The notes beneath the pieces were generated by a model. It was not told the origin of the DNA. It saw only the letters and a list, made by a program, of their open reading frames with translations, and did no database searches. Both the position numbers and the translations under genes were made by a program. Below, in pieces: positions 9,475 through 62,127 of a stretch of 64,000 nt of DNA. The stretch covers positions 1-64,000 of the forward strand of contig NW_013657637.1 in assembly GCF_000142905.1 (NCBI RefSeq), written 5' to 3'. Positions within the stretch are counted from its first letter, which is position 1, and the number at the start of each line of letters is the position of its first letter. The DNA comes from Thecamonas trahens ATCC 50062. Its lineage: Eukaryota; Protista; Apusomonadida.

Positions 9475-10072
9475 NNNNNNNNNNNNNNNNNNNNNNNNNN
9501 NNNNNNNNNNNNNNNNNNNNNNNNNNNNNNNNNNNNNNNNNNNNNNNNNNNNNNNNNNNNNNNNNNNNNNNNNNNNNNNNNNNNNNNNNNNNNNNNNNNN
9601 NNNNNNNNNNNNNNNNNNNNNNNNNNNNNNNNNNNNNNNNNNNNNNNNNNNNNNNNNNNNNNNNNNNNNNNNNNNNNNNNNNNNNNNNNNNNNNNNNNNN
9701 NNNNNNNNNNNNNNNNNNNNNNNNNNNNNNNNNNNNNNNNNNNNNNNNNNNNNNNNNNNNNNNNNNNNNNNNNNNNNNNNNNNNNNNNNNNNNNNNNNNN
9801 NNNNNNNNNNNNNNNNNNNNNNNNNNNNNNNNNNNNNNNNNNNNNNNNNNNNNNNNNNNNNNNNNNNNNNNNNNNNNNNNNNNNNNNNNNNNNNNNNNNN
9901 NNNNNNNNNNNNNNNNNNNNNNNNNNNNNNNNNNNNNNNNNNNNNNNNNNNNNNNNNNNNNNNNNNNNNNNNNNNNNNNNNNNNNNNNNNNNNNNNNNNN
10001 NNNNNNNNNNNNNNNNNNNNNNNNNNNNNNNNNNNNNNNNNNNNNNNNNNNNNNNNNNNNNNNNNNNNNNNN
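9475..10072. other. Assembly gap (N run)
   Basis: Run of n; probably hides CDC14 exon 1. Confidence 0.99.
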
Positions 10073-43608: not shown

Positions 43609-43875
43609 CAACCATCAGCCTCGATCCAGCTCGGACTACCGTCTGCCAACTGCAACGCGCAGAGCACTGACTGGTACAGCCCTCATCGTCACCATCAACG
43701 TCAACAGCACCATCATCACACGTCCGCTGGATGCGATGTCCCCTCCTTGGCTTCATCATGTTGTGCTGTGCTGAGCACGTGCCCGGCAGAGCTGCAATTG
43801 CGAGCTGCCAACCGTGGCAACCACGCGGTGACCACTCCACCTCCCCCACCAACGCACAGCGCCATCCCCACCAAC

Positions 43876-46552
43876 ATGAACAGGAGCAAGAAAGTCACCC
43901 AACCTCATCTAGTCATCCTTACTATTGCCCTTGTCCTCTCATGTGGCCTCTGTGACGAACCGGTCGAGCTCTATCTCCCTTGCTCAACCGCCGCGGCTCC
44001 GGCTATGCCTTTTCCCCGCTTTTCGCTTCCGCTAGTCTCCAACGACGGCGGTTCCTTATCACCTTTGTGCCTCGCGGGCGATCCGTCAAAATTTTATGCG
44101 TATTGTGGCTGGCAACCAACGCCGGTTTTCTCGGCACACTCGTTCGTCAATGCCTCCTCTCCACCAGCAGTACTAGCAGGTCCTGAACTCTTGCCCAAAG
44201 CAGACACCGTTGGCCCGTTTCTCACTGCTCATCTCAATGCGGATCCATGGATCGATCTCGTTGTGGCAGTGTCGGGCCAAGACACGAACGAGTTGGGCTG
44301 CTCCTTGTGGTGGTTGGCGGGCACCGACGATCCGCTCTCCTTTGCTGCGCCTGCGAGGCTCACTCTTGATACCCCGCCGTATCCTATCAGTTGCAATCGC
44401 GCCACCCGGCCTTCGCTTCTGCGCATGCCGTCGCCGGACGGGGGAAACTTTCCGCTCACTATGATATCCACCTTCACCACCCTCGACCAGTCTGTCTCGC
44501 TCAACGCCATCACGCTCGACGGGCCGATGCCGACAACGCCCAAGCTGCGAGTCCTCGACACCGTCCCCGACTCTTTCGGATTTAACGCCCTTGTTGCCGC
44601 CATCGCGCCCAACATTGTCGCCTTCGCTCCGCTCAACACGATCCGTCTCGTCTCACTCGCTCTCCCGCCGGCCTTTCCGCCGACGGTCTTGCCGCTGCCG
44701 AGCGAGCGTATTGCCAACGATTCCCAGCTCGTCGCGCTCACCTCGGCCGACGTCAACAACGATGGAATCATTGACCTCATCCTCAGCTGCAAGACTGTAT
44801 CTGCCGCCCATGCGTCCGTTGTTGTCGCTATCGCCAAGCTTGGAGCCCCTCTTTCGTGGCGCTTTGCCGTTGTCAGCAGCCCTGTCACTCCAGTCTCGAT
44901 AGCCGTCTGGCGGAGCCCCACATCTACCGAGCCATCTGCATCGCTCGTCTGGCTCTCCGCTATCCAGCCTGGTGTTGATAACTTCAACTTTGAGCTCTTT
45001 GCCATGCGCTTTGATCCAACAACCATGACACCTTCGGCCCTCACCGAGCTCTCGCCACTCGACGACGCGGGAGAGGCCACCAGCGCTGCGCTTGTTGTCT
45101 CGCCCTCGACCGACCCAGGTGCCTTTGGCTCTATCATTGTTGCGCGCGTCGTGGTCGAATCAGCTACTTCGGCAAGTAGCGGTGCCTCGTATCTCGTTGC
45201 CCCGCCTGCCTCCCCGCTGCCCGCAGACTCTCCGCATTTGACTCCCTCCCTCCCATCACCTCGTACTCGCACGCCTCCCGCGCCGCCGCAATTGCTGGCC
45301 TTGTCAACTCAGACACCGAGCCCGACATCGTCATTATTGACACCCATCATCAAGTCATCACCTTGATCAACAACATCCAGAGCGGCGTGCAAGCCAGCCA
45401 GTTCCAGCCCATTCTGGGCCCCACCCTCTCCGAGGACCTTGATTTCGGCACGGGTGCCATCCACATCTCGCTGGCAGACGCAGATGGCGACGGCTCCCAG
45501 GACCTCATGCTTACTTGTCTTTCATCGCCTACCTCCACTGGCATCTGGTACCTGCCTAACGCAGGTGGTGGTCAGTGGAACCCACTTGTTAGCCTCGCAA
45601 CGCTGCCGTTTACCATCATCAACGTTGTTCCCGTCTCCATTCGATCCGCCCTCGCCATCGAGTACATCGTGGCCTTGGACGAGACCAACAACGTCAACTC
45701 GCTTGTTTTTGTCTATCAGATCCAGGCCGGCTCGCCCGTCTTTGCCCACTGCTTCCTCCCGCCGGCACTCAACACAACATCTGAGCTCATTGCTCCGCTC
45801 CGTCCTCGTCACTCGCCGCTACCCTCGGACTCGGGCATCGTCATCGCCGCGCACTTGGGGTCATCCTCTTATCCTCTCTTCTGGGTCACGCTGGACCAGC
45901 TCGGCCATGAGTGCAAATGGAGTAGTACCACGCTGACTGTGCTGCCTGGTCGACCTAGTGCTCTCGTTGCTGGTCCTATCGGGCCTGGTGCGACAGGCGA
46001 TGACGTCGTCAGCATCATCAATGCCGATAACCATCCCATGCGCGCCACCAGTACGGTCTTCTCGCTCGCCATCATTCGTACCTCGGTCTCGACAACCAAC
46101 CCGCCAACCCAAGTTACTCCCATCCTTGCCATGGACACCGCGTGCGCCATCATCGCTGGCTTGTTATCATGTCGGTCTTTGGAGGGCCCGGCAACGATGT
46201 CGTTCTCGTCTGCGGAGCGCATCTGGTGGTATGGCAGGCTGTCGAGCCGGGAATGCTGGCGCCGGCGCCGCAGCGGATTGCCATCAGCGCCGCTTCTGAC
46301 AACGGTGAGACCTTGATCTCGCTCGTTGATCTGGACGGGAACGGCTTTCTGGACATCGTTCGTCTCGCTTCAAACGGCTTGCTGCTCTCGCTACAGCTGC
46401 CGAATCCGTGGCTGGACAACCCATTTGCCGAGCGCATTGTTCCGCTCCCACCGGCCAACTTCGCCTGCACACAGCCGGGCTCGCTCGCCTGTCTCGCCAC
46501 CGCCCTCTCGCACGTCTCCAACTGCAGGTCTGACACCGTGGCTCGTTGGTAG
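43876..46552 (+). pseudogene. 5' part of an FG-GAP/VCBS-repeat secreted/receptor gene; two frameshifts (~45225, ~46140) and truncated
   Basis: Signal peptide; FG-GAP loops HLNADPWIDLVV, DVNNDGIIDLIL, GLVNSDTEPDIVI (alternate frame), DADGDGSQDLML, DLDGNGFLDIV spread across three frames; stop at 46550-46552. Confidence 0.75.
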
Positions 46553-47415
46553 TTTCCCACTGATCGCTCCGAGGTGCGACTGGAGCATGTCCTTGCGCAG
46601 CGACGATTTGCTGCCGCCGCAGCAGGCGACGGCGCTGACGGTGGACGAGCCGGAGGACGCGGCGCTCGAGGTGTGGGCGCGGCTCGAGACGCCGACGCAG
46701 CAGCTGCCGTTCCTCTGGTACCCGCACGCCGACGCGCCGCGGCGGTACAAGGGCGCCGACGTCGAGCCGCCGGGCAAGAAGCCGCTCGCCGTGTGGGAGG
46801 TGGCCGATGACGAGGAGGGGGGGGCGCGGCTGCTGCTGTTCGGGACGACGGACAAGATCAAGCGCGGGACGGGACAGCCCGGAGTCCGGCTCGTGCCCGT
46901 GCCGGCGATGCAACGAGCTGACGAGCGCACAGCTGGTGGACATCTGCAACGCGGCGTTGTGGTCGCGGGCCGAGTTTATGGCTGTTGGGGGGTAGCTGCG
47001 GCGCGGTGTGCGGTGCGGCGCCGGCGATGTGCGCGTCAACATGCTGCGGCGGGTGCAGACGACGCTGCTGCTCGTCGAGCTCGCGCGCGCGCCGCCGTGC
47101 TCGTTGTTTGGCTTACACATGCATCGGCGTGGAGTGGACGCGCAGGCGAATGTGGCGCTCGGACACGGTCGACTCGCACACGGTGTTCAACTACATGCTG
47201 TGGTGTAGCGACGTGGTCGACGTGGCGGGAGGGGTGGAGGGCGAGGCTGAGGGTGGTGTGGCGCGAGTTGTGGACCACGTGGTGAACGACAGTACGCAGC
47301 GTCTCGCCGTCCAGCTCGAGCAGTTGTTGCGGATCTCGGACGCTCAGCCGGAGGAGTTGATGGCGGCGTTGTGCACTCGACCACGTCGTCGGCACATTGA
47401 CAGGTCAAGGCGAGT

Positions 47416-48431
47416 TCAACACATACTGCTCCAGCTCGAGCTCGGCGAGACGGGCACGCTCTCTGGTGACGCGAGCACGCTTGTCACTCGCCACCGCGGC
47501 TGCTTCGGCAGCACGGGCCTCGTCCTCGGCGGCGGCCATCGGAGTGCTTCGGCGGCAAGGCGGAGAGCGTGGAGCCGGGGGTGGGTGGAGGCACGCGTGG
47601 TGAGCTCTGAAGCGGCGGCAGCAGACAACACGCCTGCAGCGACCTCTGTGTGCTCGAGACGCGTCGGCGAGAGTGGCTGGAGCCGCTTTTGCACCGGCGC
47701 ACCAACGCCGACGGCGGCGGCGTCAAGCTTGCGCTTGCGTGTGCGAGTGGTCGTGGGCTTGGGGGTGAGCGAACGCTTCCTCCAGTACGCCAGCCACTCG
47801 TGGCCGGCGCGCTCCTCGGCGTACGTCGGCGGCGCGTCAAAGGCCGGGAGCGAGAGAGAGCGCACGGGCGACGACGAGTCGTGAGCCTCGGACCCGTGGC
47901 TCGCGCCAAACAAAGCGGGCTCGGCAGTAAACTTGCGCTTGAAGACCCGCCATTTTTGCATGTACCGCGTCCAGGTGGCGAGCGTCCGGGCCATCGTCTC
48001 GCTGTCAGCTCTGGCGCAAAGAAGCCGGGAGGGGAGGACTTGGAGAGGGCCGAGCTCATGCGTTCGAGCCGCAGCTTGAAGAGCGCGAGCGCAGCGTCAA
48101 CCACGAGACCCTGGGTGCGCGGCATGGTGTCATACCAGCAGTGCTCGCGCGCGAGGACGCGGACGGCTGCGGCCGGCGACGAGGCGGTCGGCACGCCGGC
48201 CTCCACCTCGAGGGCGAGGGGCGCGTCGGCGCCGGCCGGCCCGCCGCTGCTCCCCGCAGCAACGGCCAGGCACGAGGCCATGAGGGGGAGGAGGAACTCG
48301 ACCAGGTAGCCGGCGTGCTTGTTCGCTCCGGGCCGGGGCTGGGTCGAGGACGAGGAGGTGGAGGCCGTCGAGGACGGCGGGGTGGCGGACGAGGTGGGAG
48401 GCGAGGACGCGGGCTGCGAGCCTGTCCGCAT
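47416..48431 (-). pseudogene. Frameshifted hypothetical gene (two overlapping frames joined near 47995)
   Basis: MRTGSQ..EFLLPLMASCL..EHCWYDTM..PPGFFAPEL continues plausibly into MARTLATWTRYMQKWRVFKRKF..RKRK in another frame; no family recognised. Confidence 0.4.
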
Positions 48432-48816
48432 GGCGGGCGGTGCGAGCCGAGTGGGGGTGAAGGGGCGGCGGGCGAGGAGGTGCGTGGGCGCGGGGAGGGA
48501 CGCTGAGCCTTGGACGACGGACGACGGCGAGCTGTGTTGGGCGAGCGAGATGGGGGCTGGCTGTTGGGCGGCACCCGCACCCGCGTGAGGCCGACGCGAC
48601 CGGGCGGCCCCCGCCATTCGCGGGTGTGGGGCGAGGAAACAAGGAGGTGATGCAATATCGGACAAGTTTATCCGCTTGAACGCACAGCCTCCACCTGATC
48701 CCATTGAGGACCGACCAATAGAGGTGCCGAGGCGTGCGCGCCGCACCAAGCTCCCTGCCGGCCGCCGTGGAGCGGTGACGACTCGTGTGTCAAAACCTTG
48801 TTGAGCAACTGGGGGC

Positions 48817-50514
48817 TCAGCCGGTTCTCTTTCGCTTGCGTGGCGGAATCGACGGCCCAGAGGATGGGCCAGCCTCCGGCGAGCTGGCCACCTCGTCCAA
48901 CGAAGCACTGGACGACGAAGCACTGGACGAGGTACCGCCGCCAGACAAGAGTTCCGCACTGACCTCGTGAGGCGACACAGAATCGGAGTCGCTGCCAGAT
49001 GACGCGTCGGCAGGCGCTAGTGGTTGAAAGAAATGCGGAATGGAGCACTGCCTAGCCGTAGACTCACCGGCCCGCGTCATGACGTCTTCGAAAGTGTGCG
49101 ACGACTGCCTTGCAAGTCGCCGCAAATTGACCACCAGACGCTTCTTCTTCTTACTTGTCTTGACACACGGGGCGCAGTGCAGCTCTTGAAGGCGGCAATA
49201 CCTCAACTTTGCGGACTGCTGCTTGATGGCCCGCACCAGCGACATCACCTCCTTATTGCAGGCCTCCAACTCTGCTGCTGCAACTTCACCTTTGAGGCGG
49301 GCAACTTCACCTTTGAGGCGGGCCACCTCAGCCTCAGCATCCTCCGTGGTGGCCTTCGACAAATTGACCTCAGCTTGGGCCAACTCCACCTTCAGTTCCT
49401 CCACGAGCTTGTCCTCGATCTTCGACATGACACGAAAGGCATCACCCAGTGCTGTTGAGTATGCGTTGTAAATCGCGAGAGAGAACGGGTAGTACTGCGA
49501 GGGATCATTACCGAGGTGCGCATCGAGCGAGGCCCGGCTCTTGCGGTACGCAAGGTACCGCGCGGGCTGGTACTTCCTCCAAAATGCGTCAAGCTCTGCC
49601 CGACGATTTTGCTCAGCGTCGGAGAGTGTGACGGCGCCACCAGCGACCATCTTCACCACAGACTCGACAATCCTCGACAGATCGCCGAGATCGGTAGTCC
49701 TCGTCTTCACCGCGTCGCGCACATCCTGCTTCCCACACGAAGAGGCCACACCCTTCCGCATGTGGTCGAGCAACGACATGGTGGCGAAGATCGCACAGGT
49801 GCGCGTCAGCTTAGCGACGTCCTTCGTGGCGGCGCCCGCGTTCAAAGCCCCGGCCACTGAAGGTACGAACGTCATCATGAGATCATCGATGGCCTCGAGG
49901 ACGTCGGTGTACTCGCCGGCCACCACAGCGCTCACCCTCACGTGGCAGCTCTCGATGGCAGCCTTGACAGCGGAGCGGTCACCAGAGTGCGAATCCAGGG
50001 CGTTACACAGCAACGTGCGAACAGCCTTCTCGTCGTCGTCGCTGCGGGCCCCAATCGGCTTCGTCAACAGGGCCACACTGTCCTCAGGCACAGACGAGTT
50101 AAACGAGCCGGTGAACCAGAAAATCCAATCGACCGTCTCCCGCTTGAGAGGAATCGACTGGAGGAACTTGCCAAGCTCGATGAAGAAGTCCGACGTCCGG
50201 GAGAGACCCACGGACTTCGATTTCTCCGAGACGTAGTGCTTCACTTGCGTGAGAGCAGGGAGCTTTCCCTCTACATGCAGTACAACGTCCTCACGCCCTT
50301 CGATGGTGATCGCCGCGGCCTGGGGTGAGGGGTCCGCAACAGCAGCTTGAACAAGTTGGAGGCCAGCGCAGGCCGCCTGGTACTCATACCCCGTCGCAGA
50401 AACGTGTGCCATGCGATCGTTGAGCGAGACGCCCCCGTTAGATACGGCCAGGATAGAAGAAACGCAGTCAGCCTCGAACTCGCCAGCGGTTCGCGACGTG
50501 CTCCGCGCAGACAT
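48817..50514 (-). CDS. Cap4/DUF4297-like PD-(D/E)xK endonuclease domain + coiled coil + basic NLS-like tail
   Basis: Intact, intronless 565 aa; SATGYEYQ...ITIEGREDVVL...LTQVKHY motif; EVARLKG tandem repeat; ends PPRKRKRTG. Confidence 0.72.
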   Translation of the reverse strand: MSARSTSRTAGEFEADCVSSILAVSNGGVSLNDRMAHVSATGYEYQAACAGLQLVQAAVADPSPQAAAITIEGREDVVLHVEGKLPALTQVKHYVSEKSKSVGLSRTSDFFIELGKFLQSIPLKRETVDWIFWFTGSFNSSVPEDSVALLTKPIGARSDDDEKAVRTLLCNALDSHSGDRSAVKAAIESCHVRVSAVVAGEYTDVLEAIDDLMMTFVPSVAGALNAGAATKDVAKLTRTCAIFATMSLLDHMRKGVASSCGKQDVRDAVKTRTTDLGDLSRIVESVVKMVAGGAVTLSDAEQNRRAELDAFWRKYQPARYLAYRKSRASLDAHLGNDPSQYYPFSLAIYNAYSTALGDAFRVMSKIEDKLVEELKVELAQAEVNLSKATTEDAEAEVARLKGEVARLKGEVAAAELEACNKEVMSLVRAIKQQSAKLRYCRLQELHCAPCVKTSKKKKRLVVNLRRLARQSSHTFEDVMTRAGESTARQCSIPHFFQPLAPADASSGSDSDSVSPHEVSAELLSGGGTSSSASSSSASLDEVASSPEAGPSSGPSIPPRKRKRTG

Positions 50515-50820
50515 GACGTGCTGGTGGAAGTGAAGTGCCGGGGACGGGGTGGTGTCCGTTGCAATAGAGCGAAAGGGTGGTCGTTGTTCAGGCGGTCACG
50601 ACACCATCCTTGACATGCAACCAACCCACGCATGGCGGAGTTCTGGAGAAATAGTCGCCGACATCAAAACTCGCCCACGTGCGGCACCCCTCCACTAGGT
50701 CCAGCCGGCACCACTCTCTCCCTACCTGTATGTTTCCTTCTCCTCGGCCCCATCCTGTCCGGTGCGTTCGTGCTCAAGCGACTCATGCGATACTTGCCGA
50801 TTCAGAGCGCACTTGCCAGA

Positions 50821-51276
50821 ATGTCTGTGGAGTCGGACTCGCTCAGCTACGACCTTGCTCCCGGTGATGAAGACGCGCCCATTGACCTTCAATCGGAGGT
50901 GGAGAACATGTTTGACGAGGACATGGAGGCCGAGCAAGTGTTGGCCAAACTCATGAGGCGCCACAACCGGTACTCGCAGAGCTTTGCAAACAAGGTGGTG
51001 CGTGAGACGAACAGGCACAACTTCCTGCACAGCTGCCTCACGTGTTCGCACATGTTCGACTCGTGGCGCCAGCTGAAACAGCATTTGATCCGCGAGAAAC
51101 ACATCAAGTCAGGCAAGACCCACAAAGCTCAGCAACGGCAAGAGCTCGAAGAGCTCGACAATCGTGTCCGGGACAAGGATCCTGACGACTACTCGCCTGC
51201 CGAGTTGCGCACTATGGTGCGTGTCCGTCTTCGCTCCGCGTATCGTGAGCGCTTGAACCCGCGCCGTAAACGATAG
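50821..51276 (+). CDS. Small C2H2 zinc-finger protein
   Basis: CLTCSHMFDSWRQLKQHLIREKH; acidic N-terminus; ends PRRKR; start could be upstream (50632 or 50785). Confidence 0.7.
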   Translation: MSVESDSLSYDLAPGDEDAPIDLQSEVENMFDEDMEAEQVLAKLMRRHNRYSQSFANKVVRETNRHNFLHSCLTCSHMFDSWRQLKQHLIREKHIKSGKTHKAQQRQELEELDNRVRDKDPDDYSPAELRTMVRVRLRSAYRERLNPRRKR

Positions 51277-51315
51277 CTATCACCTGACTGGCTTGGACGA
51301 GACAGTGCGACGGGC

Positions 51316-52089
51316 ATGGCAGCACGAAGGAAGGAGAAGAGTTTGTATGTGCTCAGGTGTGAGGGGGGCAAGTACTATGTCGGGGCGACGCGCAACGTGG
51401 CGCGGCGGGTAGGGGAGCATGCCAAGGGGCGCGGCGCGGCGTGGACTAGCCGGCATGCACCGCTTGAGCTGGTGGAGGAGCGACTCATGGCGCGGGCGGC
51501 GGATGAGGATGCGCTAGTGAAGGAATACATGGCCCAGCACGGCATCGAGAATGTCCGCGGCGGCGCGTACTCGAGCGTCACCCTCTCGCATGTGCAGGCG
51601 CAAGCGCTGGTCACCGAGCTGTGGCATGCCGAGGACCGCTGCCTCGGGTGTGGCAACCAGGGCCACTACGTCCGCGACTGTCCAGCTGACTCGGAGTCGT
51701 ACGATACCGAGTCGGACGATTCGCCGTCGCCGCCACCTGCACGGGTGGTCTGCTACGCGTGCGGCGAGACCGGCCACGTGCGCCCTGCCTGCCGTTACAA
51801 GTCGGCCACATGGTACACCTGTGGCGTGCTGGGCCACATCGCGCCCGTCTGCCCCCTGGGCGCCGACGCGGGCTCGGGCTCGTCGTCGAGCAGTCCTGAG
51901 GTGCCGCTCCGCTCGTCACGGTCGTCGCGGTCATCACGCACGCCATCACGGACCTCGCGCTCCTCAGGTGTAGTGTGCTTTGCGTGCGGCCGGTCAGGGC
52001 ACGTCCGACCTGCTTGCCGATACAAGTCGGCGACGTGCTACTCGTGCGGGGAGTATGGCCACATCGTCCCTGCGTGCCCGAACACGTGA
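51316..52089 (+). CDS. GIY-YIG endonuclease fused to five CCHC zinc knuckles (one degenerate)
   Basis: LYVLRCEGGKYYVGAT..RR..EH..G.GAAWT...EDALVKEYM..GIENVRGG; CLGCGNQGHYVRDC, CYACGETGHVRPAC, WYTCGVLGHIAPVC, CFACGRSGHVRPAC, CYSCGEYGHIVPAC. Confidence 0.9.
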   Translation: MAARRKEKSLYVLRCEGGKYYVGATRNVARRVGEHAKGRGAAWTSRHAPLELVEERLMARAADEDALVKEYMAQHGIENVRGGAYSSVTLSHVQAQALVTELWHAEDRCLGCGNQGHYVRDCPADSESYDTESDDSPSPPPARVVCYACGETGHVRPACRYKSATWYTCGVLGHIAPVCPLGADAGSGSSSSSPEVPLRSSRSSRSSRTPSRTSRSSGVVCFACGRSGHVRPACRYKSATCYSCGEYGHIVPACPNT

Positions 52090-52199
52090 ACTGTTGGTTG
52101 TTGTCCGTTCTTCCTCGCAGGATGCTCGTTTCGGGGTGGACGAAGGGGAAGCGACTTGGGGCTGGGCAGTTGTCGGTGGTGCGCTTATCTGGTGCGCCG

Positions 52200-53209
52200 C
52201 TGGCGGCGGGAGCACTGACGCTCCTGGTCAAGACGCTGGTGGTGCACGTGCAGACGCTCGCGGCGCTGGTCGCCGTGTTTGACAATGGGACTGGACGTCG
52301 GCCATGCGGAGCGTCACGTCAGCGGTCCGCAAGACCTCGCTGTAGGTGACCGGCCTCGAGTGCAACGGCATCGGGTTTGCGGGCGAGTACGTCCTATTCT
52401 GGGCGCTCGGGCCCATCATGCTCGCGGCGCTGGCGCTGGCGTTCGCCGCCGTGCGCCTCTCGTTCAAGTCGCACGCTGCGCGCAGCCCGGTGGGCGGGAC
52501 GGCCGTCGGCCTGCTCGCCGCCGCCCGCACGGCCGCCCAGCTCCGCGCCGCCGCGACCAAGTACGCGCTAGTCACGTTCTACCTTTTCGTGTACCCGCTC
52601 GTCGCGCGCTCGCTGACCCTCTTCGCGTGCGTGCCCGAGCAAGTCTCCCACCCGCAGGCGAGCTACCTGGCGAGCGCGCCGTGGCTCCGCTGTGGCTCGT
52701 CCGAGCAGGTCTCGCTTGCGCTTAGCTCTGGTGCGGTGCTGCTACTCGTCGCGGCGGCGGTGACCGTCATCGCGCTGCAGATGCGGTCGGCAGTGGTGGA
52801 CGGCCGCGACACGACGGCGTACGCGTTCCTGTACGCCGGGTTTGTGCACCGTGCGTGGTGGTTTGAGGGCGTGGTGCTCGCCCGGCGTGTGGGCGTCGCT
52901 GTGTTTGCCTCACTGCTGCCGCCCGGTACAGTCTTTGCCAGTCCAGCGCTCCAGGCTGTTGTGGTTGCCTTCCTCCTGGTGCTCCTGTTCGTCCGGCCCA
53001 ACCGGACCAATCTCGCGCTCCAGCTGGAAGCGGCAGCAACTGTGACGGCGCTGATCTCGGTCGTGCTCGTCCAGAACATGCTGTACACCGCCACCAAGTC
53101 GTCCCTCGCCGCGATGACGCTCCTCGTCATCGTCCTCAACGGCGCTGTCATCGCCGCCCTTACGGCTGGCCTCCTCGCTCCGCTTTTTGTCCTCCTCCGC
53201 GGCCGCTGA
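52200..53209 (+). pseudogene. Orphan C-terminal multi-TM fragment of a receptor paralogous to 53575-56070
   Basis: LVKTLVVHVQTL..(frameshift ~52290)..KTSL*VTGLEC (in-frame TAG at 52343)..SYLASAPWLRCGS..YAFLYAGF..WWFEGVVLARR; no ectodomain upstream. Confidence 0.75.
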
Positions 53210-53574
53210 CCTCTCTCCACGTCCGAAAATGATCGTAACCGGTGAGCCGGCCGATGCCGGACGACTCAGCTGGCTTGCGCGGAGCGGCCGTCCCAGCGGC
53301 CGTCCCTCATCAGCTCGCCCCACCCACCACACGCTCGCCCCCACCCACACGCCCCAAAACCGGCCCACCTCTCAACCACCCCCAACCCCATTTACCGCCT
53401 AGATCTAATGATAATCCCCGCACCCATCCCCTCCCCCGGATTGCCGACCCGGGTTCGTGACCGCCACTGCCCCAGCTCACCACCCCCCCACCACACGCAT
53501 GCCCGCTGACCCCGACAACATCGAGGCGGCGATTGGGTGCTACGAGGTGGCGCTGGATGTGCGCACGCGTGAGT

Positions 53575-56070
53575 ATGCTTGTCGGCAGCTCGACCTTTGA
53601 TCGTAACTCGGCCACCACTGGTGGCGTTCTCGCCGTCCTGCAGGACTTTAACCCGCAGGTGATCTCTTCCGGAGCGGTCGCTCACCCGGCTCTGCTCAGC
53701 CTTCCCTATGTCCGATACGTCGCGGCACACGTTGTACTGGACAACGTCACCGTCACTGACAATGGCGCTGCCTATGGCGGTCTCTTCTTTCTGGTCGGCT
53801 GCTCGATTGAGGTTACTGGCCGCGTCCGCGGCTGGGGCAACAGCGTGCTCGGAGAGGCAGGATCAGTGGCATACGCCTCGCAAGCACTCGGAGAGCACAA
53901 AACTGATCTGGGGGTTCTTGTCCGCGGGACAAACAAGAGTCGCGCTGATCTTCGCAGCGCGTGCCTGCCCGTGCGCTGGGGAGGTGATGTGGCCACACCG
54001 ATTGCCACCATCGAGTGGCTCGTTGGCGCGGATCAGCTCAACGGCACTGCCGTCCCGTCGGGCTTTGCTCTACCGCACAACTTTGCTGTTGTTGTTCGCG
54101 ACACCAACGGTGCGCTGGTCATTGATTCGGATGTCGTCATCGAGCTCCAGGTCTACGATGGCAAAGGTGGGAGCTTCGCCATCTTCGGCGGAACGCCGCA
54201 GATCATTCTCCGCCATAACGTCACCGAGCTGACAAGCATGGGCATTGCTATCACTTCGATGGATCAGATCGGATCCTGGGTTACTGTCCGCGCCTTGGCC
54301 TCGTACGCTGCGGTGGAGGGCTTCTCTAACGTGGCTACACAAGCCATCTCGCTGCTCATCGATGGCTGCCCTGGGAATCGACCCCCGGTGCCCCACGGCG
54401 ACAGCGCACTCGTCTGCGTCTGCCCCGTCAATGCCATATCGATGCAGCTGATTGACGCCGAGACCGGCGTGCAGCGAACAGGCTGTGGATGCACCGCCCA
54501 ATTCTGGACGCCGAGTCTTCCGGTGGCGCGATGCGATCGTTGCCCCATCGGCGGAGACTGTGTCGGTGGCGAGGCCAAGCCAAGTGCGGCTGACGGCTAC
54601 TTCCCCACCTCGGATCCAAGCTACTTTCTTAAGTGCCCGATTGATGGCGCATGTGCAGGCTCCGGAACTTGTGCTGCTGGCTACAGTGGTCGGCTTTGTG
54701 CCAAGTGTGCAAGCGGATGGTACGCAACGGGCCTGGCTGCCGGGAAGTGCACGCAGTGCAAACTCGGCGCCGCCGGAACAGCCGCCGTCCTCGCGACCAT
54801 CGGCGTGCTTTGCATCTTCTTACTTGTTGGCTATGTAGTCACCCCGCAAAGCATCAGCAACGACCGCGCCAGTCGTGCCCCGGGCTCGTTGCAGGAAGCG
54901 CCGATGTCGCTATGGGACCGGAGCCGCAGCCACACCGGCAGGATCAAGACCTTGGCTATGTCTTCCATTATCGAACTTGTTGTGGTCGTTCTTCTTGGTG
55001 TCTTTGGTCTTGCAAAAGCCTGGGAGGTCGTGGTCATCGGCCTTTGCCTTGTCACGCTAAGCCTGTACGCCGTAGTCGACAGGCCTGCACAGACAACCCG
55101 GATCTCTGCAGTGCTCAAAACTATTGTGGTCTTTGTGCAGACAGTCGGTGCGGTGCTAAGCTCTGGGAATGGTCTTTTGTCATCATCGTCGTCGCTACAC
55201 ACCATCTATGGCGTGCTTCAGCGTGCCAGCCTGACCCTCACCGGCCTGGGCTGCCTTGATCTGGGGCAACTGGGCCTCCTCTGGCTCTTTGTGGCTCTGA
55301 CTGCCGGCCCGGTTCTCCTCTGCCTCGCCCTCCGATACGCGCCATGCCAGAGTCAGGGCATGCGGCGCCGAGCCGAAGGTGCAGCAGGCACCCTCGGCTA
55401 CCTTTTTGTCTTTCCACTCCTGCACCACTTGCTGGAGCACCTCTCGTGCGTCCCCGATCCGACGCCTGGTGCCCATCGCTCGTACCTGGATGCGGCACCC
55501 TGGATCGCTTGCGGCTCGGACGAACACATCGCACTCGTGGCGTCGGCTTTGAGTGTTCTGCTTGGTATTGCCTCTGCAGTTGCCGTCACCAGCGCAGTGG
55601 CCTGGTGCGCCCATCAAGCTAGTGAGCGCGAGATCTGCGATGATCGCCTCGTCCCGCTGCTCGACAGTGATGCGATGGTCATGGTTGCCGAGCATTCGCC
55701 TGTTGCCTTTCTTTGGCACACCTTCCGAGCCGAGGCCTGGTGGTATGAGGGTGTGGTTTTCACGCGAAGAGTGGCGATTGCGGTGGCGGTGGCGACCATT
55801 CCGAGAGGATCGGTCTTTACCAGCGGTGTGCTAGCCGCGACAGTCGCCGTGTCGCTCGCGGCTCACCTGCACTTTCGTCCGTACATCGACGAAGTCGCAC
55901 ACCGCATGGAGATCACAGGCCTTGTGGCCGCTCTCATTGTCATTCAGATTGTCGGCATGATGGAGCAAGCCGAAGCCGAGACTTCGATCGCCGTCCTCGC
56001 CGCCGAGTTTGTCATTGTCACCATTGGCGTGGTCGCGACCGGCCTTGTTGTGGCAGCCGGCGCCGTGTAA
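53575..56070 (+). CDS. 3' part of a beta-helix (GGxx repeat) / Cys-rich / multi-TM receptor-like gene; lacks signal peptide
   Basis: FDRNSATTGGVLAV, DNGAAYGGLFF; CDRCPIGGDC..CAAGYSGRLCAKC..GWY; TM bundle with SYLDAAPWIAC and AFLWHTF..WWYEGVVFTRR. Confidence 0.75.
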   Translation: MLVGSSTFDRNSATTGGVLAVLQDFNPQVISSGAVAHPALLSLPYVRYVAAHVVLDNVTVTDNGAAYGGLFFLVGCSIEVTGRVRGWGNSVLGEAGSVAYASQALGEHKTDLGVLVRGTNKSRADLRSACLPVRWGGDVATPIATIEWLVGADQLNGTAVPSGFALPHNFAVVVRDTNGALVIDSDVVIELQVYDGKGGSFAIFGGTPQIILRHNVTELTSMGIAITSMDQIGSWVTVRALASYAAVEGFSNVATQAISLLIDGCPGNRPPVPHGDSALVCVCPVNAISMQLIDAETGVQRTGCGCTAQFWTPSLPVARCDRCPIGGDCVGGEAKPSAADGYFPTSDPSYFLKCPIDGACAGSGTCAAGYSGRLCAKCASGWYATGLAAGKCTQCKLGAAGTAAVLATIGVLCIFLLVGYVVTPQSISNDRASRAPGSLQEAPMSLWDRSRSHTGRIKTLAMSSIIELVVVVLLGVFGLAKAWEVVVIGLCLVTLSLYAVVDRPAQTTRISAVLKTIVVFVQTVGAVLSSGNGLLSSSSSLHTIYGVLQRASLTLTGLGCLDLGQLGLLWLFVALTAGPVLLCLALRYAPCQSQGMRRRAEGAAGTLGYLFVFPLLHHLLEHLSCVPDPTPGAHRSYLDAAPWIACGSDEHIALVASALSVLLGIASAVAVTSAVAWCAHQASEREICDDRLVPLLDSDAMVMVAEHSPVAFLWHTFRAEAWWYEGVVFTRRVAIAVAVATIPRGSVFTSGVLAATVAVSLAAHLHFRPYIDEVAHRMEITGLVAALIVIQIVGMMEQAEAETSIAVLAAEFVIVTIGVVATGLVVAAGAV

Positions 56071-56085
56071 GCGGCATCCCAGCCT

Positions 56086-56573
56086 TTAACCCTCATCGGT
56101 ACGGTCGTTCGGACGCGTTGTCGCGCGTCTCAAAGTGAACAACTCGATGATGCTTGACTTCCCGGTGGGAGGCGCGCCCGCACGTGATGGCGGCCGACAC
56201 GTAGACGCCCGATCAGCCGGGAGAGCGCGGGGACTTCTTGCGACGGACGAGCTTGCCGGTCGGCGTGGCTGTGCAAGTGGTGGCACGCCATCTTGAACTG
56301 GATTCTGGACGCCGCGTACGCCCTCTACGCTGACGCGAGCCAACGCCCCGCCATGACTCGCTTGGCTTTCTCTACAGCATCATCGGCGCCTTCGCCGCCG
56401 TAGCCGACGCCATCAGCTCCGCGCCCTTCGCCGACTGTTTTCTGTTGTGGCAGCCATGAACACATTGTACTACTCTTTTACCGCAATCTGATGGACGTTG
56501 CGACGTCTGTGGAGCGTCGCGGAGCGCGCGGCTTGCGCGATGCACAAGTTTGTCCATTCCGTACCGTAAAAGG
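56086..56573 (+). mobile_element. Degenerate, internally deleted piggyBac-like transposon
   Basis: TTAA (56086) + CCCTCATCGGTACGG; imperfect inverted copy CCGTACCGTAAAAGG at 56559-56573. Internal frame CKWWHAILNWILDAAYALY..MTRLAF (56272-56370) and GRCDVCGASRSARLARC resemble the transposase C-terminus and Cys-rich domain. Confidence 0.7.
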
Positions 56574-62027: not shown

Positions 62028-62127
62028 NNNNNNNNNNNNNNNNNNNNNNNNNNNNNNNNNNNNNNNNNNNNNNNNNNNNNNNNNNNNNNNNNNNNNNNNN
62101 NNNNNNNNNNNNNNNNNNNNNNNNNNN
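62028..62127. other. Assembly gap (N run)
   Basis: Run of n. Confidence 0.98.

What the first reader, a model, noticed from the sequence alone, without database searches (positions are those of the whole stretch)
46553..53574. Candidate dual-nuclease island (Cap4-like nuclease <- -> C2H2 finger, GIY-YIG-CCHC) inside a broken receptor locus
Seen: three intact nucleic-acid-directed ORFs packed together (divergent pair ~300 bp apart, then a 39-bp gap), surrounded by frameshifted fragments, between an FG-GAP 5' part and a beta-helix/TM 3' part. No transposase, RT, capsid or integrase is visible. Inference: an undescribed mobile cassette, endogenous giant-virus remnant, or eukaryotic 'defence island' in which GIY-YIG provides homing/mobility, C2H2 provides regulation or immunity, and the Cap4-like protein is the effector. 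This is the best candidate for a new system in the window.
Basis: inference. Interest (0 to 1): 0.8.

Follow-up and report, generated by a model that had tools for sequence, protein, structure and literature searches.

The report
Bacterial anti-phage nuclease in protist island
In the lab strain of the marine protist Thecamonas, a 7-kb block of DNA interrupts a surface-receptor gene and carries an intact gene resembling the DNA-cutting effector of the bacterial Lamassu anti-phage system, likely an old gene transfer now without its bacterial partners, in a block whose ragged ends suggest it was likely pasted in by DNA repair rather than being a self-moving element.

Summary
The window is Thecamonas trahens. 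The three ORFs are real and intact. The block is also real: 46544-53571 (7,028 bp). Contigs of the same organism bridge both junctions. Contigs from three wild metagenome studies match the flanking receptor gene at about 99% and leave it exactly at 46543 and 53572. The block replaces at least about 350 bp of that gene. The 565-aa ORF has a Lamassu LmuA/Cap4-type nuclease domain with intact motifs (PADLOC E=3.6e-9), but a coiled coil and basic tail follow it and no LmuB or LmuC lies nearby. It has no close relative among 1.84 billion representatives. The GIY-YIG-CCHC gene belongs to a family common in giant-virus contigs. Against a self-mobile cassette: no inverted repeats, target duplication or transposase; both ends cut through gene fragments; codon use is host-like; the trio co-occurs in 0 of 121 GIY-YIG loci. 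Best reading: accessory Thecamonas DNA pasted in at a repaired break, carrying a stand-alone eukaryotic Cap4-type nuclease. A toxin-antidote or antiviral role is open and untested.

The parts
43876..46543 (+). 5' half of receptor A (FG-GAP-like repeats), cut at the left junction; stops 2 codons into the block (TAG 46550-46552)
   Evidence: Pfam FG-GAP_3 E 1e-4 to 1e-2, below cut-off; +1 base after 46151 in 4 of 4 runs; frame open to the junction
46544..53571 (.). 7,028-bp block that replaces the middle of receptor A
   Evidence: Wild contigs leave the window at 46543 (X9 rec 26, 377 further letters; X12 rec 11, 128) and at 53572 (X9 rec 29, 342; X10 rec 6, 31); same-organism contigs bridge both junctions (X4 46125-46681, X4 53308-53616, X1 53375-55049)
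46544..46604 (.). 61-nt unassigned linker at the left junction
   Evidence: Between the breakpoint and the start of similarity to the AMSG_08295 family
46605..47371 (+). Pseudogene fragment of a dispersed Thecamonas multi-copy family (residues 125-361 of 366 of AMSG_08295; also AMSG_02207): 2 frameshifts, 1 in-frame stop; no known domain
47416..48617 (-). Orphan low-complexity gene 'Y' in two frames (frame change near 48010-48100: pseudogene or tiny intron)
   Evidence: contigs show no indel there (X1 47930-48472)
48704..48775 (.). 72-nt unit that occurs as a repeat elsewhere in the organism and in a wild sample
   Evidence: Joint 48775->48704 and loose ends in X3, X4, X9, X10
48817..50514 (-). 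ORF1 (P0001, 565 aa; RefSeq model AMSG_08599 is 427 aa): LmuA/Cap4-type endonuclease domain (about 32-200; G42-x-x-Y45-Q46, E72, D76, Q90-x-K92), helical middle, coiled coil (about 360-440), Ser-rich tail ending in a basic NLS-like motif
   Evidence: PADLOC LmuA E=3.6e-9; own HMM 22.1 bits against at most 1.1 for 1,001 controls; alignment A2; Atlas 0.97; Foldseek 9hr5 E=2.4e-4
50821..51276 (+). ORF2 (P0024, 151 aa): acidic N-terminus (net -14 in residues 1-40), one C2H2 finger (72-94), basic C-terminus; no relative found
51316..52089 (+). ORF3 (P0002, 257 aa): stand-alone GIY-YIG nuclease with CCHC knuckles; family motifs intact (Y11, Y21, G23, R31, H35, E64, N79)
   Evidence: Pfam GIY-YIG E=4.9e-7, zf-CCHC E=9.8e-19; alignment A1
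52100..53209 (+). 3' (multi-TM) fragment of a second receptor paralogue B, degenerate at its 5' end
   Evidence: 32% identity over 310 columns to residues 576-859 of the receptor A 3' ORF, E=2e-34
53499..53571 (+). First 24 codons of another gene behind a C-rich upstream region, cut by the right junction (TPR-like by recalled resemblance only; no Pfam hit)
53572..56070 (+). 3' half of receptor A (Cys-rich DUF7630 plus multi-TM)
   Evidence: Pfam DUF7630 E=4.8e-14; wild contigs about 99% identical

Best explanation
The 7,028-bp block interrupts receptor gene A and is likely a piece of fast-evolving accessory Thecamonas DNA that was pasted in, with loss of the gene's middle, during repair of a DNA break, and its main cargo is an intact stand-alone Cap4/LmuA-type endonuclease likely acquired long ago from bacteria. 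Shown: the breakpoints, the lost middle (at least about 350 bp), gene fragments at both ends, no TIR or TSD, intact catalytic motifs, host-like codon use. Inferred: capture by non-homologous, templated break repair; old transfer from a bacterial Lamassu/ABC-3C or Avs-type effector; replacement of the LmuB/C-binding tail by a coiled coil and a nuclear signal, so that the protein would enter the nucleus and cut DNA non-specifically once it oligomerises, as LmuA does as a tetramer; a role in conflict (cell suicide or selfish killing) rather than housekeeping. ORF2 and ORF3 are likely neighbours gathered in the same accessory region, not obligate partners.
For: Breakpoints seen in 2 studies each (X9 and X12 left; X9 and X10 right) and bridged in the organism's own contigs. 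Left end: 61-nt linker, then a 5'-truncated pseudogene of a family on at least 3 contigs. Right end: receptor B 3' fragment, then a 24-codon stub. Longest end-to-end direct match 5 nt, longest inverted match 6 nt; none at the ends. GC3s 0.71/0.73/0.79 and codon fit 0.105/0.124/0.211 lie inside the range of 16 host ORFs (0.64-0.86; 0.095-0.429). LmuA homology; only 12-22% identity to 25 bacterial domains and only itself among 1.84e9 representatives, which fits old transfer. No co-occurrence: 0 of 121 GIY-YIG loci (1.15 Mb) hold an LmuA-like or ORF2-like gene, 0 of 30 LmuA loci hold the GIY-YIG gene. Surrounding window is ordinary eukaryotic housekeeping.
Against: Three intact genes packed 306 and 39 bp apart among decayed fragments suggest joint selection or a shared origin. 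One wild contig is 96% identical to ORF3's knuckle region and then diverges (X10 rec 5), so ORF3 has related copies elsewhere. The wild contigs could come from a near-identical paralogue of receptor A rather than from the allelic locus. My co-occurrence test used distant relatives; the closest ORF3 relative (P0004, 56%) has no context on hand. The AF2 model was built on an LmuA alignment, so its fold match is partly circular. No activity was measured.
Confidence: 0.5

Rival explanations
1. Selfish nuclease cassette: ORF1 would be a toxin, the divergently transcribed acidic/C2H2 ORF2 its antidote or repressor, and ORF3 a free-standing homing-type nuclease whose breaks spread the trio together with flanking DNA (which would explain two receptor paralogues broken at or in the block).
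For: Tight head-to-head ORF1/ORF2 layout and 39-bp ORF2-ORF3 gap; all three intact among pseudogene pieces; acidic N-terminus of ORF2; free-standing GIY-YIG genes spread by cleavage and repair (PMC12220804, passages); LmuA-type effectors can be toxic when over-expressed (PMC12663957, passages).
Against: No second occurrence of the trio (0 of 121 loci); ORF1 and the ORF2/3 model each form a 90% cluster of 1 member on 1 contig; receptors A and B are broken at different positions, so no shared homing site; ORF3's viral relatives stand without these partners.
Confidence: 0.2
2. Remnant or cargo of a larger mobile element or endogenous virus (polinton-like virus, giant virus, giant cargo transposon) whose motor and capsid genes were lost or lie at the donor site.
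For: ORF3's family: 265 confirmed stretches in viral contigs, 33 of the best 80 labelled GVMAG; in the quick tree ORF3 and P0004 (SH-aLRT 98) sit in a 93-row group with 61 viral rows; GIY-YIG genes are common in PLVs and virophages (PMC12220804, passages).
Against: No capsid, ATPase, polymerase, integrase or helicase hit; GC 0.57-0.67 against median 0.37 (0.20-0.54) for 80 viral loci; ORF1, ORF2 and the left-end fragment have no viral relative by pattern scans; the tree does not resolve a viral donor and also holds Andalucia and prokaryotic rows; host gene fragments fill about half of the block.
Confidence: 0.14
3. A true eukaryotic defence island: ORF1 and ORF3 would act together against giant-virus or plasmid DNA under ORF2 control, kept as a presence/absence polymorphism by balancing selection.
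For: ORF1 derives from an anti-phage effector family; the block is polymorphic at its junctions; eukaryotic homologues of other anti-phage proteins can be antiviral (10.1101/2022.12.12.520048, passages).
Against: Only ORF1 hits PADLOC (1 of 7 distinct island ORFs scanned at E<=1, 0 of 20 other window ORFs at E<=1e-4); no sensor domain (SMC, STAND, SAVED) in the block; no recurring neighbourhood.
Confidence: 0.12
4. Assembly chimera or bacterial contamination.
For: No single listed contig spans the whole block; the left junction is bridged only by X4 among listed pieces, which may be the assembly's own sample; the 52090-52345 join is not bridged in the listed pieces.
Against: Both junctions and the ORF1-ORF2 and ORF2-ORF3 joins are bridged by the organism's contigs (X4, X1, X2 50454-50859, X6 50930-51429); 324,729-bp contig with eukaryotic genes; host-like codon use; block holds Thecamonas-specific gene fragments.
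Confidence: 0.04

Closest known systems
Lamassu LmuA-Cap4 / ABC-three-component effector (PADLOC PDLC03848; PDB 9hr5, 9nxx)
   Same: N-terminal Cap4-type PD-(D/E)xK nuclease domain with GxxYQ, E, D and QxK motifs and the following helix; predicted fold
   Different: 12-22% identity; no match to the LmuB/C-binding C-terminal domain; coiled coil and basic tail instead; no lmuB or lmuC beside it; eukaryotic nuclear gene
Cap4 nuclease domains of Avs3 and CBASS Cap4 (8dgc, 6vm6, 7yib)
   Same: Same nuclease fold (VIA Z 7.9, rmsd 4.8, 173 aligned; Z 6.3; Z 6.2)
   Different: No STAND NTPase, TPR or SAVED sensor fused
Eukaryotic 'Lamassu homologues' of 10.1101/2022.12.12.520048
   Same: Eukaryotic protein related to an LmuA effector
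   Different: Those searches used the protease-type LmuA profile; 'Cap4' and 'Thecamonas' occur 0 times in its main text
GIY-YIG + CCHC-knuckle proteins of giant-virus contigs (also Andalucia godoyi, some prokaryotic MAGs)
   Same: Same domain order and conserved motifs, 30-49% identity; 56% to an unnamed metagenome protein
   Different: GC-rich, host-like gene in a protist chromosome, with duplicated knuckle pairs; neighbours not shared
Free-standing homing endonuclease genes; templated insertions at repaired breaks (recalled)
   Same: Block present in one version and replaced by other sequence in others; nuclease gene inside
   Different: No homologous insertion site shown; target sequence deleted; ends inside unrelated genes

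Membership tests
Cap4-type endonuclease domain | GxxYQ helix, E, D and QxK catalytic motifs in a PD-(D/E)xK-like fold | tested here: met
   Q46, E72, D76 invariant in 20 of 20 rows, K92 and G42 in at least 90%; HMM without the query 30.5 bits, E=1.7e-11; model pLDDT 69, top Foldseek hit LmuA. Matching K92 to V. cholerae K57 is inferred from the motif, not aligned directly
Cap4-type endonuclease domain | DNase activity on oligomerisation | not testable with these tools
   Needs biochemistry
Lamassu (LmuABC) | LmuA C-terminal domain that binds LmuB/C | tested here: inconclusive
   PADLOC match ends at profile position 144 of 373, own HMM at about residue 100; no CTD7/CTD1 Pfam hit; but Atlas models align over residues 31-344 at TM 0.47-0.50
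Lamassu (LmuABC) | SMC-like lmuB (and lmuC) next to lmuA | tested here: not met
   No PADLOC hit in the other island ORFs or 20 other window ORFs; elsewhere in the genome not testable
CBASS Cap4 | SAVED sensor domain and adjacent CD-NTase | tested here: not met
   No such Pfam or PADLOC hit
GIY-YIG nuclease superfamily | GIY..YIG hairpin with conserved Arg, His, Glu, Asn | tested here: met
   PF01541 30.4 bits, cut-off 22.6; conserved columns in A1
Free-standing homing endonuclease | Cleaves the cognate allele that lacks the gene; homologous flanks | not testable with these tools
   Wild allele sequence between the breakpoints was not retrieved (one search found 0 matches)
Cut-and-paste DNA transposon | Terminal inverted repeats, target-site duplication, transposase | tested here: not met
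   target is deleted, not duplicated
Helitron | 5'-TC and CTRR-3' ends in an AT target; RepHel gene (features recalled) | tested here: not met
   End sequences printed fit on neither strand; no RepHel hit
Polinton-like virus / virophage / giant endogenous viral element / transpoviron | Capsid, packaging ATPase, polymerase, integrase or helicase; TIRs | tested here: not met
Penelope-like retroelement | Reverse transcriptase with the GIY-YIG domain | tested here: not met
   No RT hit in island or flanking ORFs

The most novel reading that the evidence does not exclude
A eukaryotic selfish or antiviral three-gene module built from a bacterial Lamassu Cap4 effector (toxin), a small acidic C2H2 antidote/regulator and a giant-virus-type GIY-YIG nuclease that spreads the module by break-and-repair without transposase or defined ends, segregating in wild Thecamonas populations.
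Probability: 0.15. Interest if true: 0.85.

Novelty: new variant of a known kind. Interest (0 to 1): 0.5.

Why it matters
Cap4-type nucleases are suicide effectors of bacterial Lamassu, CBASS and Avs systems. My literature searches found no report of one in Thecamonas, and the passages read describe eukaryotic LmuA relatives only of the protease type; subscription journals and supplements were not searched. An intact copy, apparently refitted for the nucleus and without its sensor, in a culturable relative of opisthokonts makes it testable how a eukaryote tames a bacterial suicide nuclease. The block also shows kilobase-scale structural variation in T. trahens and three RefSeq gene models that look wrong. 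It is not shown to be a new mobile element or system.

Tried and rejected
No whole genome was held, so copy number and donor site are open. No RNA holder listed. Run X3 (kind guessed as DNA) has gene-shaped contigs over the island (50806-51284 at depth 64.5; ORF1 pieces at 3-8) and none over the receptor halves; this looks like RNA, but no spliced joint was seen, so it is only a hint. Wild runs X9, X10 and X12 show no listed piece over about 215 nt inside the block, and their word shares (0.17, 0.14, 0.10) fit flanks only (flanks are 0.22 of the stretch); lack of cover is not proof of absence. Island depth in X1, X2 and X6 is not above the flanks, so no sign of high copy number (hint only). 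A search for the wild allele in JGI metagenomes found 0 matches. ORF1 relatives: none in longer proteins, plasmids (34), prokaryote genomes (42), viral contigs (104) or PDB by single sequence (29). The single-sequence AF2 model was unusable (pLDDT 41). The ORF1 tree has a 3.9-long end branch and names no donor (25 of 26 domains kept, 1 under 90 residues dropped). The careful GIY-YIG tree did not finish (131 rows, hits under 95 residues dropped). The weak viral hit to gene Y (L152, E=6e-4) was not reproduced. One confirmed viral-collection match to P0027 returned no locus. The AMSG_08295 family has no Pfam, PADLOC or PDB match and is unrelated to the Cap4 domain. Atlas hits for ORF2 are under 0.9. 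No Rfam match in 43-57 kb. No earlier scan findings. The ABC-3C paper sought by DOI was not held.
Full report
Source. ORF3 is 100% identical over 87% of its length to AMSG_12187 of Thecamonas trahens ATCC 50062, on a 324,729-bp contig. The rest of the window is ordinary eukaryotic housekeeping: Ras, RhoGAP, TBC, aminotransferase, EME1, TPR, AIR9. No whole genome was held.

The three ORFs. ORF1 48817-50514(-), 565 aa; ORF2 50821-51276(+), 151 aa; ORF3 51316-52089(+), 257 aa; gaps 306 and 39 bp. ORF3 passes Pfam GIY-YIG and zf-CCHC cut-offs; ORF2's C2H2 finger scores below cut-off (E=5e-4) but has the full CxxC-12-H-4-H pattern; Pfam Cap4_nuclease on ORF1 is only E=0.075. The RefSeq model AMSG_12187 fuses ORF2 to ORF3 and skips the GIY motif; the 19 relatives aligned in A1 are single-domain-order proteins of which 18 begin with that motif, so ORF3 is likely a gene of its own. 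AMSG_12186 fuses FG-GAP sequence to the left-end fragment across the junction, and AMSG_08599 ends at 427 aa.

ORF1 is a real LmuA/Cap4-type nuclease. PADLOC LmuA E=3.6e-9, residues 39-186. The ESM Atlas ranks ABC-three-component/Cap4 clusters first (0.97, 206 of 256 features) and its own model aligns to them over residues 31-344 at TM 0.47-0.50. I fetched LmuA loci from 30 places in a search where 32 of 401 genomes matched. An HMM of 17 full-length proteins scores ORF1 at 22.1 bits against at most 1.1 for 1,000 shuffles and the reversed sequence; an N-terminal HMM built without the query gives E=1.7e-11. Q46, E72 and D76 are invariant in 20 of 20 rows, G42 and K92 nearly so. An AF2 model on that alignment (pLDDT 69) finds the Salmonella LmuA tetramer first by Foldseek (E=2.4e-4) and Avs3 first by VIA (Z 7.9, rmsd 4.8, 173 aligned); this is partly circular. 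Identity to 25 bacterial domains is 12-22% and the tree names no donor. phmmer over 1.84e9 representatives returns only the protein itself. In Lamassu the C-terminal domain holds LmuA monomeric on LmuBC and then drives the tetramer that activates Cap4, with K57 essential (PMC12663957, passages). ORF1 shows no match to that domain; it has a heptad coiled coil and ends in a basic NLS-like motif. No LmuB or LmuC lies in the window ORFs scanned. It works like an LmuA nuclease by inference; it is not a Lamassu member.

ORF3 belongs to a wide family: 265 of 304 pattern matches confirmed in viral contigs, 33 of the best 80 labelled GVMAG (read as giant-virus genomes; label meaning recalled), 33 loci in prokaryotic genomes, 8 in metagenomes, and Andalucia godoyi. 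Its sister is an unnamed metagenome protein (56% identity, SH-aLRT 98) inside an unresolved, mostly viral group. ORF2 has no relative.

The block is real. Contigs from one estuary and two marine metagenomes (three studies) match the receptor flanks closely (X9: 855 nt with 6 differences and 1 gap) and leave the window at the same bases: 46543 (X9, 377 further letters; X12, 128) and 53572 (X9, 342; X10, 31). No 46543-to-53572 joint is listed, so the other version has its own middle of at least about 350 nt. The organism's own contigs bridge the junctions: X4 46125-46681 and 53308-53616, X1 53375-55049. All 4 runs add one base after 46151; read through with X there, the FG-GAP frame runs to the junction and stops two codons inside the block. 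Lab-strain contigs also share variants with the wild flanks (45436 and 45521 in X4; 45827 and 45849 in X1), which suggests a second allele or copy of receptor A in the culture. Whether the wild contigs are allelic or paralogous is not settled.

The block does not look like an element with ends. There are no terminal repeats or target duplication. From the left: 61 unassigned nt; residues 125-361 of the 366-aa AMSG_08295 family with two frameshifts and a stop (family on at least 3 contigs and in metagenomes); a split orphan ORF; a 72-nt repeat unit; ORF1-3; the 3' end of a second receptor (32% identical to A's TM part); a C-rich spacer; and 24 codons of another gene cut by the right junction. 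No transposase, RT, capsid, ATPase or integrase family was hit. GC3s and codon fit of ORF1-3 fall within the range of 16 host ORFs, unlike the 80 viral loci (GC median 0.37). The trio does not recur: 0 of 121 GIY-YIG loci hold an LmuA-like or ORF2-like gene and 0 of 30 LmuA loci (about 1.5 kb flanks) hold the GIY-YIG gene. These are distant relatives, so the test is weak for a Thecamonas-only cassette.

Mechanism. Most likely (0.5) a stretch of accessory, partly decayed Thecamonas DNA was copied or moved into receptor A at a repaired break, deleting the receptor's middle. Its intact cargo includes a long-resident, bacteria-derived Cap4-type nuclease that would act in the nucleus after oligomerising through its coiled coil; these steps are inferred. 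Rivals: a selfish toxin-antidote-homing trio (0.2), a remnant of a larger element or virus (0.14), a co-functional antiviral island (0.12), an artefact (0.04).

Literature. Searches for Thecamonas with Cap4 and for Cap4 with protist or eukaryotic-homologue terms returned no paper describing this; some searches were seen as listings. I read passages only of PMC12663957, 10.1101/2022.12.12.520048 (eukaryotic LmuA hits are protease-type; 0 mentions of Cap4 or Thecamonas), PMC12220804, PMC12680541 (0 mentions of Cap4) and PMC1564403 (0 mentions of 'knuckle' or 'mimivirus'). Supplements, including the hit tables of the bioRxiv paper, were not seen and could list this protein.

Verdict. Observation largely right, boundaries real, Cap4 call strengthened; the claim of a new three-gene system is unproven. 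New variant of a known kind; interest 0.5.

Noticed in passing
window 56086-56570: High-copy repeat (summed contig depth tens to about 3,000). It starts TTAA-CCCT and other copies end GGGTTAA, which resembles a piggyBac-type non-autonomous element (resemblance recalled).
   Followed up: partly
window 46151: One-base deletion in the reference: 4 of 4 runs carry an extra base (G in wild runs, A in the same-organism run).
   Followed up: yes
window 45189-45226 (+) and 48011-48039 (-): Candidate very short GT..AG introns (38 and 29 nt) that would restore the frames of receptor A and gene Y; the first is the only such span there, the second one of 9.
   Followed up: partly
window 43700-46100 and 53600-55600: Variants in lab-strain contigs, some shared with wild metagenomes, suggest two alleles or near-identical copies of receptor A in the culture.
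   Followed up: no
runs X9, X10, X12: Thecamonas trahens-like DNA at about 99% identity in estuary and marine metagenomes of three studies.
   Followed up: partly
window 46605-47371; AMSG_02207, AMSG_08295: Dispersed multi-copy protein family of no known domain, with truncated and frameshifted copies; may itself belong to an unrecognised repeat element.
   Followed up: partly
window 46031-52089: RefSeq models AMSG_12186, AMSG_12187 and AMSG_08599 appear mis-predicted (fusion across the junction, fusion that skips the GIY motif, early end).
   Followed up: partly
L114-L130: Bacterial LmuA loci show the usual lmuA followed by ORFs of about 165 aa and over 320 aa (seen in L114-L116), unlike the protist locus.
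   Followed up: no
window 9475-10072 and 62028-62127: Two assembly gaps (N runs), both outside the block.
   Followed up: no
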